Shown here in pieces: positions 1 through 5,084 of a stretch of 28,813 nt of DNA. Source of the DNA: Thermoproteota archaeon. Lineage in GTDB: Archaea > Asgardarchaeota > Jordiarchaeia > Jordiarchaeales > Freyrarchaeaceae. Numbering within the stretch: the first letter of the stretch is position 1; every line of letters starts with the position of its first letter. The DNA lies in contig JAPDJY010000052.1 of NCBI GenBank assembly GCA_029258835.1, forward strand, positions 1-28,813. Direction: 5' to 3'. Both the position numbers and the translations under genes were made by a program. A model generated the notes under the pieces. The model saw only the letters and a list, made by a program, of their open reading frames with translations. It did not search any database and had not been told where the DNA came from.

Positions 1-53
1 CATAAAGGCGCTGGCAGCCCTCCTCCCAACCCTAGAAAAAACACGCGGAAAAA

Positions 54-2325: not shown

Positions 2326-2987
2326 TGACCGACTTAGCAGCGGAGCTAGAAGAGCTCGTAAAAGAAGTAGAGGAAACCGACTTTACGGGGAACGAACCGC
2401 TAGAAAAGAGGCTTTTTGAGAGGGCAGACGAGCTCGTGAAAGACTAAATCTTGAGAGATGAGGTTTAAAGGCGGGGAGACGGGGGAAGAGATGGAGAAGT
2501 TCGAGAAGATCAAGCTCTCAAAGGTCTTCGCCAAGAAGGTGTTAGAATGGCTTGACAGAGGGACTCCGCAAAAACGCCATAAAACAATGGAACCCCGACG
2601 AGAGAAGACTACGACTGGTGGAACAGATCGTTGATGGAACTTCTAAGTGAAAGAAGAGCTTCCCTACTAGACGATGTAGAAATGTTTATCGGCCGACAGG
2701 CCATCATGAAAAGAGTGACAATGAATTCAACAAACACACCAGGAGCATTGAAAGTACTTCTAGACCACATAGATAGGCTAACCTTATGGGACAGAGCAGT
2801 AATAGCGTATATAAGCTTAGTTTTCATAGCGAAGAAAAATGCAAGAAAGTTCCACCCAGACTTAGAGGAGGCACGTATTATTTACTTTAACTTCTTTCTG
2901 ATACGTGTGGTGGTGAGCAACGCAACACCAACTAGGAGCGTCACGAGAGAGCCCCCGAAGCTAGTGCATAAATCAATAAGCCTCTAG
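2326..2987 (+). pseudogene. Coding-like fragments, including the 118-aa ORF 2631-2987; possibly a decayed continuation of the upstream gene
   Basis: Short protein-like frames (e.g. VTDLAAELEELVKEVEETDF...ADELVKD*) with the same purine-rich composition as the upstream ORF, broken by stops and frameshifts. Confidence 0.3.
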
Positions 2988-2996
2988 GTGAAATCA

Positions 2997-3010
2997 CGAA
3001 AAATTTATAA
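2997..3010 (+). promoter_or_regulatory. Archaeal BRE/TATA promoter of tRNA-Asp
   Basis: cgaaaaa-TTTATAA about 29 nt upstream of the tRNA 5' end (3039). Confidence 0.6.
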
Positions 3011-3038
3011 CGACAGGTTAACTACTAACCTTCTGAGC

Positions 3039-3202
3039 GCCCCGGTGGTGTAGCCACCTAAGTCTGGGCTGTAAAGGTTTTATCATCACGGACTGCTAAA
3101 CTGGCCCGTAATGTCGATCCGTGGATGGAGAGCAGATTGTCCTGCCTCCCGCGAACCCGGGTTCAAACCGGAGGTGGGGAATAAATCCCGGCCGGGGCGC
3201 CA
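3039..3202 (+). tRNA. trnD: tRNA-Asp(GUC) with four BHB introns (3056-3074 at 17/17a; 3094-3111 at 32/33; 3126-3155 at 46/48; 3167-3184 at 58/59); CCA encoded
   Basis: Removing the four introns gives a 79-nt cloverleaf: acceptor GCCCCGG/CCGGGGC, G73, CCA; anticodon arm ACGGA-CTGTCGA-TCCGT; T arm CCGGG-TTCAAAT-CCCGG. Each intron has a 4-bp central helix and two 3-nt bulges (GTAG/CTGT, ACGG/CCGT, CGTG/CGCG, GTTC/GAAT). The mature D-loop is 12 nt, one more than usual. Confidence 0.9.
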
Positions 3203-3294
3203 CTTTCCTTAACAGCCTCTTAATTTTGCATTGCTTGAGGTTACACGCAAATTATTTAAGGATATTTGAAGCGGTTATGTTTCAGGTATGTGTT

Positions 3295-3477
3295 GGGCGG
3301 GTAGTCTAGAGCGGAAAGCGGGAAACTTGGTATGATTCCCGTGTGGCACGGGAATGAAACCGGGTTTAGCTTGTGCGCCTAAGGGACCCGGTGACCTTCC
3401 GTGTTGTGCGTGGGGCCGGTAGTCCTGGGTTCAATGCAGCGGCGTGAACGCCGTGCGGACAGATCCCAGCCCGCCCA
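3295..3477 (+). tRNA. trnP: tRNA-Pro(UGG) with five BHB introns (3310-3325 at 15/16; 3337-3358 at 25/26; 3368-3382 at 34/35; 3394-3421 at 45/46; 3435-3462 at 58/59)
   Basis: The spliced product is a 74-nt cloverleaf: GGGCGGG TA GTCT AGCTTGGTA TGAT A CCGGG TTTGGGA CCCGG TGGTC CTGGG TTCAAAT CCCAG CCCGCCC A. Central helices GGGT/GCCT, CCGG/CCGG and GTTC/GGAC pair fully (with G-U). GTCT/GGGA and TATG/AATG pair 3 of 4. Confidence 0.9.
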
Positions 3478-3521
3478 TCAATTGCATTTTTTCCTTGTTA
3501 TGTTTTGTTGGGGGTGTTTCG

Positions 3522-5084
3522 TTGAGGTTTGCATTGAGGGGTTATTTTGAGCTTAGCGACGTTCTTTCAGATGATGCTGTGGGGGGAGTTAGGAGGTTCT
3601 TAGGTGAGATTGGTGATGCCGTGTTCAAGAAGGGGGCTCCTCGTGGGAAGGAGGATGAGGCGGCACGGCTGATTAGTTGGGATGTTAGAGGGAATAGGTT
3701 TTATGTAGAAGTTGAGAGTGGAAGGTATGTTCGAGCTCATGTTGCTTTTGTTAGATTGAGGAATGCTTTGGCGGAGTTCCTTGGTTCTAGGTTTGGGTTG
3801 GGAGTTAGGGGCTCTAGGGTGGAAGAGTACGTTTTGGAGTTTGAGCTAGATAGGGAGCCGTTAGAGCCTGTTAATGTTTTGTTTGCTAAGGATGTTAGAT
3901 TTGATGGGAGGAAGGTTACGATTTTACTTGAAGATTTAGATGATGTTGCTTTGGAAAGGAATTATCCTGATAGGATTATTGGGCGTGTGCGGGAGAAGGT
4001 GGCTAGGCAGTTTGTTTCAGGTAAAGGAGAGTTTACCCGTGTTGTTAGACGTAGTAATAAGGGTGTTGAAAGGTATGTGCTTAAGGAGGACCCGACCGAC
4101 TTAGCTATTAGGTTTGGGTGGGTTAAGGAGTATCCTGCAACGGGTGTTTGGCAGATTATGCCGCCTATGGCTGCTTTAATTCGCGCTATGGAGAAGTTGA
4201 TCGTCGACGAGGTCGCTAAGCCGCTTGGCTTTCAGGAGGTGATGATGCCTCGCCTTATACCGTTAGAGGTCGAGTATAGGAAGGGGCATTTTGGCATTGC
4301 GAACGAGATTATTTGGGCTTGCCCTCCTGTCTCCCGTGACCCGAAGGATTTTGAGGACTTGGTGGATTATGTTGAAATTACTGGTGGTCCTCCGCCAGCG
4401 GAATTTTTAAGGGAGAAGCTGCGTCCTCCTCTTTATGGTCTTTCTTACGCTCAATGTGAACCGTTCTATGAGATGTTCCATAGGGAAACTGTTGACTTAG
4501 ATGCTTTAGAGGAAGAACCCATTAAGTTCTATGATAGAAATGGGCCTACTTATAGGTGGGAGAGTGGGGGGGTTAGGGGGCTGGAAAGGTTAAACGAGTT
4601 CCATAGAGTTGAATTTGTTTTTCTTTCGACGCCTAGGAAGTGTATTGAAATCAGGGATTCTATATTGGAGAGAACAGAGAGAATTGTAGATGAAGTGTTT
4701 GATTTAGAGTATAGAGTGGATGCAACCACGGCAGTTTACCTTGAACATGCCGGGAAGATGGAGGAGGAAGGAGGAGGGGACTTCGTTAAAACGTATGACT
4801 TAACCGCTATTTTGCCTTTTCAAACTAAAAGTAGGCCCGAGGCAGAGCTTGAAATTGCAAGCTTCCACGTTCACACGGATTTTTATGCTAAACGCTTCCA
4901 TTTTAGAGATAAAAAAAGGAGGACGGTCTTCACTGGTTGTGCTGGACTCGGCCCCTCAAGGTTTGCATACGTCTTCCTTGTAAGGTACGGTTTCGACTTT
5001 GAAAACTGGCCTAATGAAATTAAGAAGTACATAGGAGAGAAGCTGCCCGAGCCACCCAGAATGTTAACATGGCCTAAGGGGTAA
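3522..5084 (+). CDS. serS: Serine--tRNA ligase, methanogen (rare) type
   Basis: N-terminal SGRYVRAH domain motif, SYAQCEPFY, motif 2 GPTYRWESGG..GLERLNEFHRVE, motif 3 TGCAGLGPSR. Start moved to TTG 3522 (GGGGTG SD-like upstream) because the ORF-track start at 3444 lies inside tRNA-Pro. Confidence 0.9.
   Translation: MRFALRGYFELSDVLSDDAVGGVRRFLGEIGDAVFKKGAPRGKEDEAARLISWDVRGNRFYVEVESGRYVRAHVAFVRLRNALAEFLGSRFGLGVRGSRVEEYVLEFELDREPLEPVNVLFAKDVRFDGRKVTILLEDLDDVALERNYPDRIIGRVREKVARQFVSGKGEFTRVVRRSNKGVERYVLKEDPTDLAIRFGWVKEYPATGVWQIMPPMAALIRAMEKLIVDEVAKPLGFQEVMMPRLIPLEVEYRKGHFGIANEIIWACPPVSRDPKDFEDLVDYVEITGGPPPAEFLREKLRPPLYGLSYAQCEPFYEMFHRETVDLDALEEEPIKFYDRNGPTYRWESGGVRGLERLNEFHRVEFVFLSTPRKCIEIRDSILERTERIVDEVFDLEYRVDATTAVYLEHAGKMEEEGGGDFVKTYDLTAILPFQTKSRPEAELEIASFHVHTDFYAKRFHFRDKKRRTVFTGCAGLGPSRFAYVFLVRYGFDFENWPNEIKKYIGEKLPEPPRMLTWPKG

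What the first reader, a model, noticed from the sequence alone, without database searches (positions are those of the whole stretch)
3039..3202. tRNA-Asp(GUC) with four non-canonical introns
Seen: introns in the D-loop, anticodon loop (32/33), variable region and T-loop, all with 4-bp central helices. The gene has a TATA box and encoded CCA, so it looks active. Together with the neighbouring Pro gene, this shows that more than 3 introns is not a one-off in this genome.
Basis: partly seen in the sequence, partly recalled or inferred. Interest (0 to 1): 0.85.

Follow-up and report, generated by a model that had tools for sequence, protein, structure and literature searches.

The report
Four-intron aspartate tRNA gene, Asgard archaeon
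This is the real and apparently only aspartate tRNA gene of an Asgard archaeon (family Jordarchaeaceae), cut into five pieces by four short tRNA-type introns; it is correctly read, but genes this crowded are already reported for this lineage, so it is a good new example and not a new kind of thing.

Summary
Observation confirmed. Window 3039-3202 (+) is a 164-nt tRNA-Asp(GUC) gene. Four inserts make up 85 nt (52%): 3056-3074 (D-loop, 17/17a), 3094-3111 (32/33), 3126-3155 (variable region, 46/47) and 3167-3184 (T-loop, 58/59). Removing them gives a 79-nt cloverleaf with encoded CCA that ARAGORN calls tRNA-Asp. The unspliced gene is invisible to ARAGORN and Rfam.

All four junctions fit the bulge-helix-bulge rule (joint chance about 1e-8). 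For each insert, at least one related genus has uninterrupted sequence at that position. It is the only tRNA-Asp found in the MAG, and the genome encodes a Crenarchaeota-type EndA alpha subunit, a second EndA paralogue and RtcB. Independent metagenome assemblies carry the same gene, so misassembly is excluded. The neighbouring tRNA-Pro has five introns.

Splicing itself is not shown: no RNA data cover this gene.

Novelty is low. The organism belongs to Jordarchaeia. Four-intron tRNAs were tabulated for the related Freyarchaeia and for Atabeyarchaeia in 2024, and a 2026 preprint reports up to five per gene in these families. This scan has also confirmed a four-intron tRNA-Phe in this genome and similar genes in related ones.

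Extras: intron positions differ between sister genera, one metagenome may hold an allele lacking intron 4, and intron 3 ends in a copy of the ancestral exon.

The parts
2996..3010 (+). Putative BRE/TATA promoter (GAAAAATTTATAA; TATA box 3004-3010)
   Evidence: Read directly. A similar GAAAAATTTAWA motif lies 30-40 nt upstream of the tRNA-Asp orthologues in G002, G004, G006 and G009. Promoter function is inferred.
3039..3055 (+). Exon 1 (17 nt): tRNA positions 1-17, covering the acceptor 5' strand, U8, the D-stem 5' strand and A14-C17
   Evidence: Identical or nearly identical in sister genus g2.
3056..3074 (+). Intron 1 (19 nt), D-loop, 17/17a
   Evidence: Central helix GTAG/CTGT 4/4, inner helix 4 bp, bulges CC|A and AA|A. 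Shuffle rate 0.0098. g2 has an intron at the same site; the Freyarchaeia D-loop is uninterrupted.
3075..3093 (+). Exon 2 (19 nt): positions 17a-32, covering G18G19, the D-stem 3' strand, C26, the anticodon-stem 5' strand ACGGA and C32
3094..3111 (+). Intron 2 (18 nt), anticodon loop, 32/33
   Evidence: Central helix ACGG/CCGT, 4/4 Watson-Crick; inner helix 4 bp. Shuffle rate 0.0014. Shared with g2; absent in Freyarchaeia.
3112..3125 (+). Exon 3 (14 nt): positions 33-46, covering U33, anticodon GUC, G37 A38, the anticodon-stem 3' strand TCCGT and GGA
3126..3155 (+). Intron 3 (30 nt), variable region, 46/47 (Sprinzl position 47 absent)
   Evidence: Central helix CGTG/CGCG 4/4, inner helix 4+4 bp with one bulged A. 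Shuffle rate 0.0095. Freyarchaeia has an intron at the same site, published at 1427046-1427073. g2 is uninterrupted there. The last 10 nt contain CTCCCGCGA, which matches exon 38-46 of g2 and of other Asgard families.
3156..3166 (+). Exon 4 (11 nt): positions 48-58, covering C48, the T-stem 5' strand CCGGG and TTCAA
3167..3184 (+). Intron 4 (18 nt), T-loop, 58/59
   Evidence: Central helix GTTC/GAAT 4/4 (one G-U), inner helix 2 bp, outer helix 2 bp. Shuffle rate 0.081, the weakest of the four. g2 and Freyarchaeia have an uninterrupted TTCAAAT and instead carry an intron at 53/54. DNA run X1 holds a 38-nt contig that joins CCGGGTTC directly to 3183-3212, which reads as a T-loop without this insert.
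3185..3202 (+). Exon 5 (18 nt): positions 59-76, covering AT, the T-stem 3' strand, the acceptor 3' strand, G73 and the encoded CCA (3200-3202)

Best explanation
Window 3039-3202 is the single-copy, functional tRNA-Asp(GUC) gene of a Jordarchaeaceae (Asgard) archaeon, interrupted by four protein-spliced (bulge-helix-bulge type) introns.

Inferred mechanism, none of it shown by RNA data:
1. Transcription starts about 25 nt downstream of the TATA box at 3004-3010.
2. In the precursor the acceptor stem forms. Each insert folds back so that its last nucleotides but two (n-5 to n-2) pair with the four exon nucleotides just upstream of the 5' splice site. This creates a 4-bp helix flanked by two 3-nt bulges.
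3. The heteromeric, Crenarchaeota-type splicing endonuclease EndA cuts after the second nucleotide of each bulge, at eight sites in all.
4. RtcB joins the five exons (17, 19, 14, 11 and 18 nt) into a 79-nt tRNA that already carries CCA.

The helices for introns 1-3 use nucleotides that belong to the D-stem and to both strands of the anticodon stem. The cloverleaf can therefore form only after, or during, splicing. Splicing is probably stepwise and not simultaneous.
For: - Product: the in-silico spliced sequence is called tRNA-Asp(gtc) by ARAGORN, while the unspliced gene is not detected. It has G73, G10-U25, GUC, U33, G18G19 and TTCAAAT.
- Splice motifs: all four junctions show a 4/4 central helix, 3-nt bulges and a flanking helix. 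Shuffle rates are 0.001-0.08 each, with a product of about 1e-8; the window-wide rate at random boundaries is 0.011. All four motifs and the acceptor stem fit into one nested structure.
- Comparison that does not use the motif: spliced products from three genera align colinearly at 76-82% identity, with compensatory changes in the acceptor, anticodon and T stems.
- Every G000 insert faces uninterrupted sequence in at least one relative. The D-loop and anticodon loop are uninterrupted in Freyarchaeia; the variable region and positions 54-60 are uninterrupted in g2.
- In g2 the exons differ at a single base (99-100% identical), while the introns differ in sequence, length and number (3 or 4).
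- My parse of the Freyarchaeia orthologue matches the published tRNAscan-SE introns: one exactly, the other shifted by 1 nt to an equivalent boundary.
- Necessity: exon matches occur only on contig C31 of the 94.7%-complete MAG.
- Machinery: there are two EndA paralogues. The 190-aa one aligns end to end with the Aeropyrum pernix alpha subunit 3p1z_B (E 4e-46) and keeps the His that is replaced by Ala in the 3ajv_B chain, as well as a Lys in the loop region. RtcB is present.
- Assembly: the same four-intron gene occurs on an independent JGI contig (L113) and in contigs of runs X1 and X2.
- Synteny: Asp-Pro-LeuRS order is conserved with g2.
Against: - No RNA evidence exists for this gene. The one metatranscriptome holding part of the region covers only the neighbouring tRNA-Pro, and that contig is unspliced.
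- The unconstrained minimum-energy fold of the precursor (-66.9 kcal/mol) does not display all four motifs. The structure holding all four is much less stable (-38 kcal/mol as drawn, -45.7 when the remaining bases are allowed to pair).
- The outer (exon-exon) helices are weak, at 0-2 bp, so these are HBh'-type motifs and not strict hBHBh' motifs.
- Intron 4 has the weakest motif (shuffle rate 0.08), and four boundary placements give the same product.
- The mature D-loop of 12 nt with a U13-U22 mismatch is at the long end of what is normal.
Confidence: 0.9

Rival explanations
1. It is a tRNA-Asp gene, but not all four inserts are introns. One, for example the 30-nt hairpin in the variable region or the D-loop insert, would be kept in the mature tRNA as an expansion, so the true intron count is three or fewer.
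For: No RNA data show the junctions. The 2026 preprint itself calls D-arm inserts 'intervening sequences' and finds canonical motifs at only a third of those missed by tRNAscan-SE. The variable-region insert forms a stable hairpin that appears in the minimum-energy fold.
Against: All four inserts have a complete 4-bp central helix with bulges at exactly the boundaries needed for a standard cloverleaf. A 34-nt variable region would be far longer than any class II arm, and tRNA-Asp is class I. The Freyarchaeia insert at the same site is annotated as an intron. Relatives with identical function lack each insert.
Confidence: 0.05
2. The locus is a decaying pseudogene, and the working tRNA-Asp lies in the unassembled 5% of the genome, or is split or permuted elsewhere.
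For: The MAG is 94.7% complete with 6% contamination. My search for other copies relied on exon similarity.
Against: All stems pair perfectly, apart from the U13-U22 mismatch that the Freyarchaeia orthologue also has, and identity elements are intact. The promoter motif and synteny are conserved. Orthologues in four g2 genomes and in Freyarchaeia are also interrupted and are the only Asp-like genes seen there. The anticodon-stem changes relative to g2 are compensatory, which implies selection on the spliced product.
Confidence: 0.03
3. The inserts are assembly artefacts, arising from chimeric joins or collapsed repeats in a metagenome bin.
For: The sequence comes from a 91-contig MAG.
Against: A separately assembled JGI contig (L113) is identical across the whole gene. 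A 2279-nt contig in run X2 spans the whole laid stretch 2900-3600 with one differing base, and a 2905-nt contig in run X1 covers 2900-3212 with none.
Confidence: 0.01

Closest known systems
[quoted passage not shown] 2024, PMC11291895; Goswami et al. 2026, bioRxiv 10.64898/2026.10.13.758758)
   Same: Same lineage: the LeuRS neighbours are Jordarchaeia MAGs. Same phenomenon: several short BHB-type inserts per gene, many at non-canonical positions, with D-arm inserts missed by standard tools. Four-intron genes are tabulated there (Freyarchaeia Arg-TCT, Ile2-CAT and Leu-GAG; Atabeyarchaeia Trp-CCA), and 'up to five in a single gene' is stated. Two EndA paralogues are also reported there.
   Different: This genome is its own genus in the tool's genus grouping (g1) and comes from marine or hydrothermal sediment metagenomes. 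The tRNA-Asp of the published Freyarchaeia genome has two introns, not four. The particular combination 17/17a + 32/33 + 46/47 + 58/59 occurs in none of the six orthologues compared here.
tRNA-Asp(GTC) no. 4 of the complete Freyarchaeia genome, 1426998-1427132 (Supplementary Data 4 of PMC11291895)
   Same: It is the orthologue, 81% identical after splicing. It shares the variable-region intron site, the exon sequence CGTGGA before that site, and the D-arm sequence TCATC.
   Different: It has only two introns (variable region and 53/54) and none in the D-loop or at 32/33. Its T-arm intron sits at 53/54, not 58/59.
Multi-intron tRNA genes of Thermoproteales (Sugahara et al. 2007/2008, cited in PMC4090602; Marck and Grosjean 2003)
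   Same: BHB and relaxed HBh' introns at non-canonical positions, a heteromeric EndA with broad specificity, and several introns per gene.
   Different: It is a different phylum. As I recall the literature, three per gene is the maximum reported there; the review likens genes with three introns to the Crenarchaeal ones. Thermoproteales introns show clear signs of copying between tRNA genes, whereas the preprint finds almost none in Asgard.
Ectopic and multiple tRNA introns in the Cyanidioschyzon merolae nucleus (PMC3728597) and multi-intron tRNA genes in another alga described in review PMC4090602
   Same: Multiple ectopic protein-spliced introns in one tRNA gene.
   Different: Those are eukaryotic and involve a different endonuclease complex. 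The review gives up to three introns per gene for that other alga; I did not read the per-gene count for C. merolae.

Membership tests
Archaeal EndA-spliced (bulge-helix-bulge) tRNA introns | A 4-bp central helix flanked by two 3-nt bulges on opposite strands, with cleavage after the second bulge nucleotide | tested here: met
   All four inserts show 4/4 pairs at the register that gives the cloverleaf. Shuffle rates are 0.0014-0.081. The same rule reproduces the published Freyarchaeia intron boundaries.
Archaeal EndA-spliced (bulge-helix-bulge) tRNA introns | At least one flanking helix (h or h') | tested here: met
   Inner helices are 4, 4, 4(+4) and 2 bp. Outer helices are only 1, 1, 0 and 2 bp, so the motifs are HBh'-type and not strict hBHBh'.
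Archaeal EndA-spliced (bulge-helix-bulge) tRNA introns | The genome encodes a splicing endonuclease able to cut non-canonical sites, and an RNA ligase | tested here: met
   Two EndA paralogues are present. The 190-aa one aligns over its full length to the A. pernix (alpha-beta)2 alpha subunit. RtcB scores 607 bits. Substrate range is inferred, not assayed.
Archaeal EndA-spliced (bulge-helix-bulge) tRNA introns | The insert is absent from the mature RNA | not testable with these tools
   No RNA run covers the gene. The only RNA contig, on the neighbouring tRNA-Pro, is unspliced.
tRNA-Asp(GUC) | A cloverleaf with anticodon GUC and Asp-type features (G73, G10-U25) | tested here: met
   ARAGORN on the spliced product. 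Alignment to six orthologues and to uninterrupted Asgard tRNA-Asp genes. That G73 and G10-U25 act as identity elements is from my own knowledge of yeast tRNA-Asp.
tRNA-Asp(GUC) | It is the functional gene copy of the genome | tested here: inconclusive
   Only one locus matches the exons, but the MAG is 94.7% complete and expression is not shown.
Heavily interrupted tRNA genes of Jordiarchaeia | The host belongs to Jordiarchaeaceae or Freyrarchaeaceae | tested here: met
   LeuRS on the same contig is 78% identical to Jordarchaeia/Jordarchaeales MAGs QC4 and JZ-1_bins_29 and 68-70% identical to Freyarchaeota. The genome shares a family with G001-G004.
Heavily interrupted tRNA genes of Jordiarchaeia | Most tRNA genes of the genome carry inserts, many of them hidden from standard finders | tested here: met
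   A scan that ignores the splice motif, using the acceptor stem, T-arm and 5' signature, found 36 tRNA-like genes. Mean length for positions 1-72 is 126 nt and the median is 123.5; only 2 are 80 nt or shorter. Asp, at 160 nt, is fifth longest. ARAGORN reports only 25 calls genome-wide, several implausible, and none of the three tRNA genes in the window.

The most novel reading that the evidence does not exclude
Intron 3 may not be foreign DNA dropped between positions 46 and 47. It may record a switch between two copies of an exon segment. The intron ends in CTCCCGCGA, preceded by TGTC a few bases upstream. This is the ancestral tRNA-Asp sequence for positions 38-46, still used as exon in sister genus g2 and in uninterrupted genes of other Asgard families. 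The exon G000 actually uses (ATCCGTGGA) lies upstream, and the 5' strand of the anticodon stem has co-evolved with it. Freyarchaeia shares the derived exon and the intron site. G001 and G002 carry a canonical 37/38 intron where G000 has 'new copy plus spacer'. On this reading, BHB introns can shift between 37/38 and 46/47, and can be gained or erased, through choice between duplicated exon segments. That would be a route of intron turnover the 2026 preprint did not test.
Probability: 0.2. Interest if true: 0.6.

Novelty: new member of a known kind. Interest (0 to 1): 0.35.

Why it matters
Reviews give three introns as the most in an archaeal tRNA gene, so on its face a four-intron gene looks like a record. 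It is not: this Asgard lineage is already known for it. The value here is as a well-documented case.

- Such genes escape ARAGORN and Rfam entirely. MAGs of this group will therefore look as if they lack essential tRNAs, and completeness or codon-usage inferences that depend on tRNA counts will be wrong.
- The Asp locus gives a compact comparative series: two introns in Freyarchaeia, three or four in Jordarchaeum-like genomes, and four at partly different sites here. A possible intron-free allele of one site occurs in a natural population. Together these make the open question of how BHB introns are gained, lost or moved directly approachable.
- It sets a concrete biochemical problem. An 11-nt exon and an anticodon stem with both strands tied up in intron helices imply ordered splicing by a Crenarchaeota-type EndA in a relative of eukaryotes.

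Tried and rejected
1. ARAGORN (with intron option) and Rfam, at gathering and E<=10 thresholds, found no tRNA in the unspliced region. These tools cannot see the gene, which says nothing against it.
2. RNA evidence. Two run searches and one read-laying gave no RNA cover of tRNA-Asp. One metatranscriptome contig (3274-3524) covers the neighbouring tRNA-Pro unspliced, and it may be precursor RNA or DNA carry-over. The DNA run from the same sample as that metatranscriptome (X16) laid nothing.
3. The metagenome scan for exon 2 returned one true hit, identical to the window, and two chance hits. It gave no new relatives.
4. Tandem duplication or exon copying as a general origin of these introns was tested on 57 introns (38 published Freyarchaeia introns plus G000 and g2 Asp/Pro/Glu). 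Identity between exon tail and intron tail beyond the constrained tetramer was 3.58 against a null of 3.56 (P 0.47). Local similarity of introns to their host tRNA reached P<=0.05 in 3 of 57, with 2.85 expected. I reject it as a general route. Only the single case of Asp intron 3 remains, with shuffle P 0.013 for a match anywhere in the tRNA; that is not significant after allowing for 57 introns unless its exact register is counted.
5. Homology between the 37/38 intron of G001/G002 and the G000 'new copy plus spacer' is not supported: 61% of shuffles aligned as well.
6. I considered reading G000 with a canonical 37/38 intron that uses the downstream copy as exon. I rejected it because the anticodon stem would have only 3 of 5 pairs and no BHB helix forms there (hand check on the sequence).
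7. Is G000 exceptionally intron-rich? The three genes in the window average four introns. Genome-wide, however, the mean excess length of about 50 nt per gene matches the family average in the preprint (about 2.2 inserts of about 22 nt). It is not an outlier.
8. I did not build a full per-gene intron census of G000. A motif-guided parser would return too many false solutions without compact reference tRNAs.

Full report
WHAT IS THERE. Window 3039-3202 (+) begins with GCCCCGG and ends with CCGGGGC-G-CCA, a perfect 7-bp acceptor stem with discriminator G and an encoded CCA. ARAGORN finds no tRNA anywhere in the window. Rfam finds nothing at gathering thresholds, and no tRNA match at E<=10 in 2900-3600.

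Removing four stretches leaves a 79-nt sequence that ARAGORN calls tRNA-Asp(gtc). It finds nothing in the 164-nt gene itself. The four stretches are:
- 3056-3074 (19 nt)
- 3094-3111 (18 nt)
- 3126-3155 (30 nt)
- 3167-3184 (18 nt)

In standard numbering the inserts lie at 17/17a (D-loop), 32/33 (anticodon loop), 46/47 (variable region, position 47 absent) and 58/59 (T-loop). The exons are 17, 19, 14, 11 and 18 nt. Inserts make up 85 of 164 nt (52%).

IS IT MORE THAN CHANCE? I scored each junction with the bulge-helix-bulge rule. Exon nucleotides x-5 to x-2 pair with intron nucleotides n-5 to n-2, each followed by a 3-nt bulge that is cut after its second nucleotide.
- All four junctions have 4 of 4 pairs: GTAG/CTGT, ACGG/CCGT, CGTG/CGCG and GTTC/GAAT.
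- Inner helices are 4, 4, 4(+4) and 2 bp. Outer helices are weak, at 0-2 bp.
- I shuffled each insert and allowed every boundary that gives the same spliced product. A full central helix plus a flanking helix of at least 2 bp then appears at rates of 0.0098, 0.0014, 0.0095 and 0.081. The product is about 1e-8. Random boundaries in the window pass at 0.011.
- All four motifs and the acceptor stem fit into one nested structure.
- That structure is much less stable (-38 to -45.7 kcal/mol) than the unconstrained fold (-66.9 kcal/mol). The unconstrained fold shows only the intron 3 motif and the intron 2 hairpin.

WHOSE GENE IS IT? The window is contig C31 of a 2.72-Mb, 91-contig MAG, 94.7% complete with 6% contamination. 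The LeuRS gene 2 kb away is 78% identical to Candidatus Jordarchaeia/Jordarchaeales MAGs (QC4, JZ-1_bins_29). It is 68-70% identical to Freyarchaeota, including the complete genome CP147778. So this is an Asgard archaeon of the family Jordarchaeaceae, in a genus of its own in the set held (g1). Its sister genus is g2 (G001-G004), and Freyarchaeia (G005-G010) is in the same order. The DNA occurs in several hydrothermal-vent and marine-sediment metagenomes.

COMPARATIVE EVIDENCE. This evidence does not depend on the splice motif. The Asp-Pro gene pair next to LeuRS is conserved in g2.
- G003 and G004: three inserts, at 17/17a, 32/33 and 53/54.
- G001 and G002: those three plus a canonical 37/38 intron.
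- Freyarchaeia G006 and G009: two inserts, in the variable region and at 53/54.

Every spliced product is called tRNA-Asp by ARAGORN. The products align colinearly at 76-82% identity between genera. Compensatory changes occur in the acceptor stem (CCGG/CCGG versus CAAG/CTTG), the T stem and the anticodon stem (ACGGA/TCCGT, CGGGA/TCCCG, GCGGC/GTCGT). Within g2 the exons differ at one base (99-100% identical), while the inserts differ in sequence, length and number.

Each of the four G000 inserts faces uninterrupted sequence in at least one relative. My parse of the Freyarchaeia gene matches the published annotation: tRNA no. 4, Asp GTC, with introns at 1427046-1427073 and 1427081-1427109. The second intron matches exactly; the first is shifted by 1 nt to an equivalent boundary.

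IS IT NEEDED, AND CAN IT BE SPLICED? Exon-level matches to the mature sequence occur only at this locus, so it is the only tRNA-Asp gene found. The genome has two EndA paralogues, both with N- and C-terminal endonuclease domains. The 190-aa protein aligns end to end with the catalytic alpha subunit of the Aeropyrum pernix (alpha-beta)2 enzyme (3p1z_B, E 4e-46). It keeps the His that is replaced by Ala in the 3ajv_B chain, and a Lys in the loop region (RKPK against EKPR). That loop is the one the paper listed (PMC3241643) links to cleavage at non-standard positions. The second paralogue is 308 aa. RtcB is present at 607 bits. A GAAAAATTTATAA motif lies 29 nt upstream of the mature 5' end and recurs upstream of all the orthologues.

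ASSEMBLY. A separately assembled JGI metagenome contig (L113) carries the identical gene with all four inserts. A 2279-nt contig of run X2 spans 2900-3600, and a 2905-nt contig of run X1 covers 2900-3212 with no difference. Misassembly is excluded.

WHAT IS NOT SHOWN. There is no RNA evidence for this gene. The only RNA library with matching words gives one 251-nt contig at 3274-3524. That contig is the neighbouring tRNA-Pro gene with all its inserts plus short flanks. It could be a precursor or DNA carry-over. Splicing, its order and the mature ends are therefore inferred.

MECHANISM (inferred). The central helices of introns 1, 2 and 3 use D-stem nucleotides 12-13 (plus D-loop 14-15), anticodon-stem nucleotides 27-30, and nucleotides 41-44 (anticodon stem 41-43 plus G44). 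In the precursor neither the full D stem nor the anticodon stem can form, and only the acceptor stem holds the ends together. If all eight cuts happened at once, exons 2 and 3 would be attached to the rest only by three D-stem pairs. Stepwise removal with refolding is therefore more likely.

THE NEIGHBOURS. tRNA-Pro(UGG) at 3295-3477 needs five inserts removed to give a 74-nt product that ARAGORN accepts. They lie at 15/16, 25/26, 34/35, 45/46 and 58/59, and their central helices have 3-4 of 4 pairs. The g2 orthologue has three of these. So more than three introns is not a one-off here.

A genome-wide scan that ignores the splice motif used a 7-bp acceptor stem, U8, G10, A14, R15 and a T-arm with at most one insert. 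It found 36 tRNA-like genes with a mean length for positions 1-72 of 126 nt and a median of 123.5. Asp, at 160 nt, is the fifth longest. The excess of about 50 nt per gene matches the published family average, so this genome is typical of its family.

WHAT IS KNOWN. Valentin-Alvarado et al. 2024 (PMC11291895) reported that 92-95% of tRNA genes in Freyarchaeia and Atabeyarchaeia have introns, often several and often non-canonical. Their Supplementary Data 4 lists four-intron genes: Freyarchaeia Arg-TCT, Ile2-CAT and Leu-GAG, and Atabeyarchaeia Trp-CCA.

A preprint of October 2026 (10.64898/2026.10.13.758758) surveys 90 Asgard genomes. It names Jordiarchaeaceae, Freyrarchaeaceae and Atabeyarchaeaceae as the intron-rich families. 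It reports 2.2 inserts per gene, 'up to five in a single gene' and D-arm inserts missed by tRNAscan-SE. [quoted passage not shown]

Earlier notes of this scan record the same thing: a confirmed four-intron tRNA-Phe in this very genome, and four- and five-intron genes in related genomes. The finding is thus a new member of a known kind.

SIDE OBSERVATIONS.
(a) Intron turnover. Sites 17/17a and 32/33 are shared by G000 and g2. Site 46/47 is shared by G000 and Freyarchaeia but absent in g2. Site 53/54 is shared by g2 and Freyarchaeia, while G000 has 58/59 instead. Site 37/38 occurs only in G001 and G002.

(b) A possible intron-free allele. In DNA run X1, a 38-nt contig at depth 45 joins CCGGGTTC directly to 3183-3212. 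That is exactly the predicted spliced T-loop followed by this gene's own 3' flank. The intron-bearing contig in the same run has depth 15. It rests on one short contig, so it is a lead and not a result.

(c) An old exon inside intron 3. Intron 3 ends in CTCCCGCGA(A). This is identical to positions 38-46 of the g2 tRNA and of uninterrupted tRNA-Asp genes in two other Asgard families (f6 and f19), as CGGGA-CTGTCAC/A-TCCCG-CGAC. The exon G000 uses is a different sequence lying upstream, and it is shared in derived form with Freyarchaeia. This suggests a switch between two copies of an exon segment. However, tests for a general exon-copy signal on 57 introns were negative. The single case has shuffle P 0.013 for a match anywhere in the tRNA. 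I therefore rate this reading at about 0.2.

VERDICT. I put confidence that this is a functional four-intron tRNA-Asp gene at 0.9. Novelty is that of a new member of a known kind, and interest is 0.35.

Noticed in passing
window 3295-3477 (+): tRNA-Pro(UGG) with five inserts at 3310-3325, 3337-3358, 3368-3382, 3394-3421 and 3435-3462. The 74-nt spliced product is accepted by ARAGORN. The g2 orthologue has three of these. A metatranscriptome contig (run X18) covers 3274-3524 unspliced, which is only the gene plus short flanks, so it could be a precursor transcript.
   Followed up: partly
window 3183-3212, run X1: A DNA-level variant. A 38-nt contig at depth 45 reads CCGGGTTC followed by 3183-3212, which is the T-loop without intron 4 and with the same 3' flank. 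The intron-bearing contig in the same run has depth 15. It may be an intron presence/absence polymorphism in a natural population.
   Followed up: partly
window 3146-3155 (tail of intron 3): CTCCCGCGA(A) is identical to exon positions 38-46 of tRNA-Asp in sister genus g2 and in uninterrupted genes of other Asgard families. A TGTC lies 4 nt upstream of it, so the intron tail resembles a stale copy of the segment from anticodon loop to variable region. A general test for such copies was negative.
   Followed up: partly
In my quick split, the T-arm insert ends in TGACCCGGG-AG, a perfect 9-nt repeat of the exon tail just before it. ARAGORN read that split as a tRNA with an unassigned 4-base anticodon (cctc), so my anticodon-loop insert is 1 nt too short; it should probably be 19 nt.
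   Followed up: partly
window 3444-5084 (+): A seryl-tRNA synthetase of the methanogen type (PF18490 tRNA_bind_4 plus class II core). The mechanical ORF start (GTG at 3444) lies inside the tRNA-Pro gene, so the true start is probably one of the downstream TTG/GTG codons (3495-3621).
   Followed up: no
G000 contig C62:55-126 (-): In the tRNA scan, the 72-nt tRNA on C62 is one of only two genes without any insert; the other is the initiator-like gene on C2 (74 nt). Its sequence looks unlike the others, so it may belong to the 6% contamination.
   Followed up: no
other contigs of G000 (notes e1-5484539, e1-5484688, e1-5484407 and others): First-stage notes report BHB-type mini-introns in many protein-coding genes and in RNase P RNA of this genome. 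If true, that is a larger story than the tRNA introns. I did not examine it.
   Followed up: no
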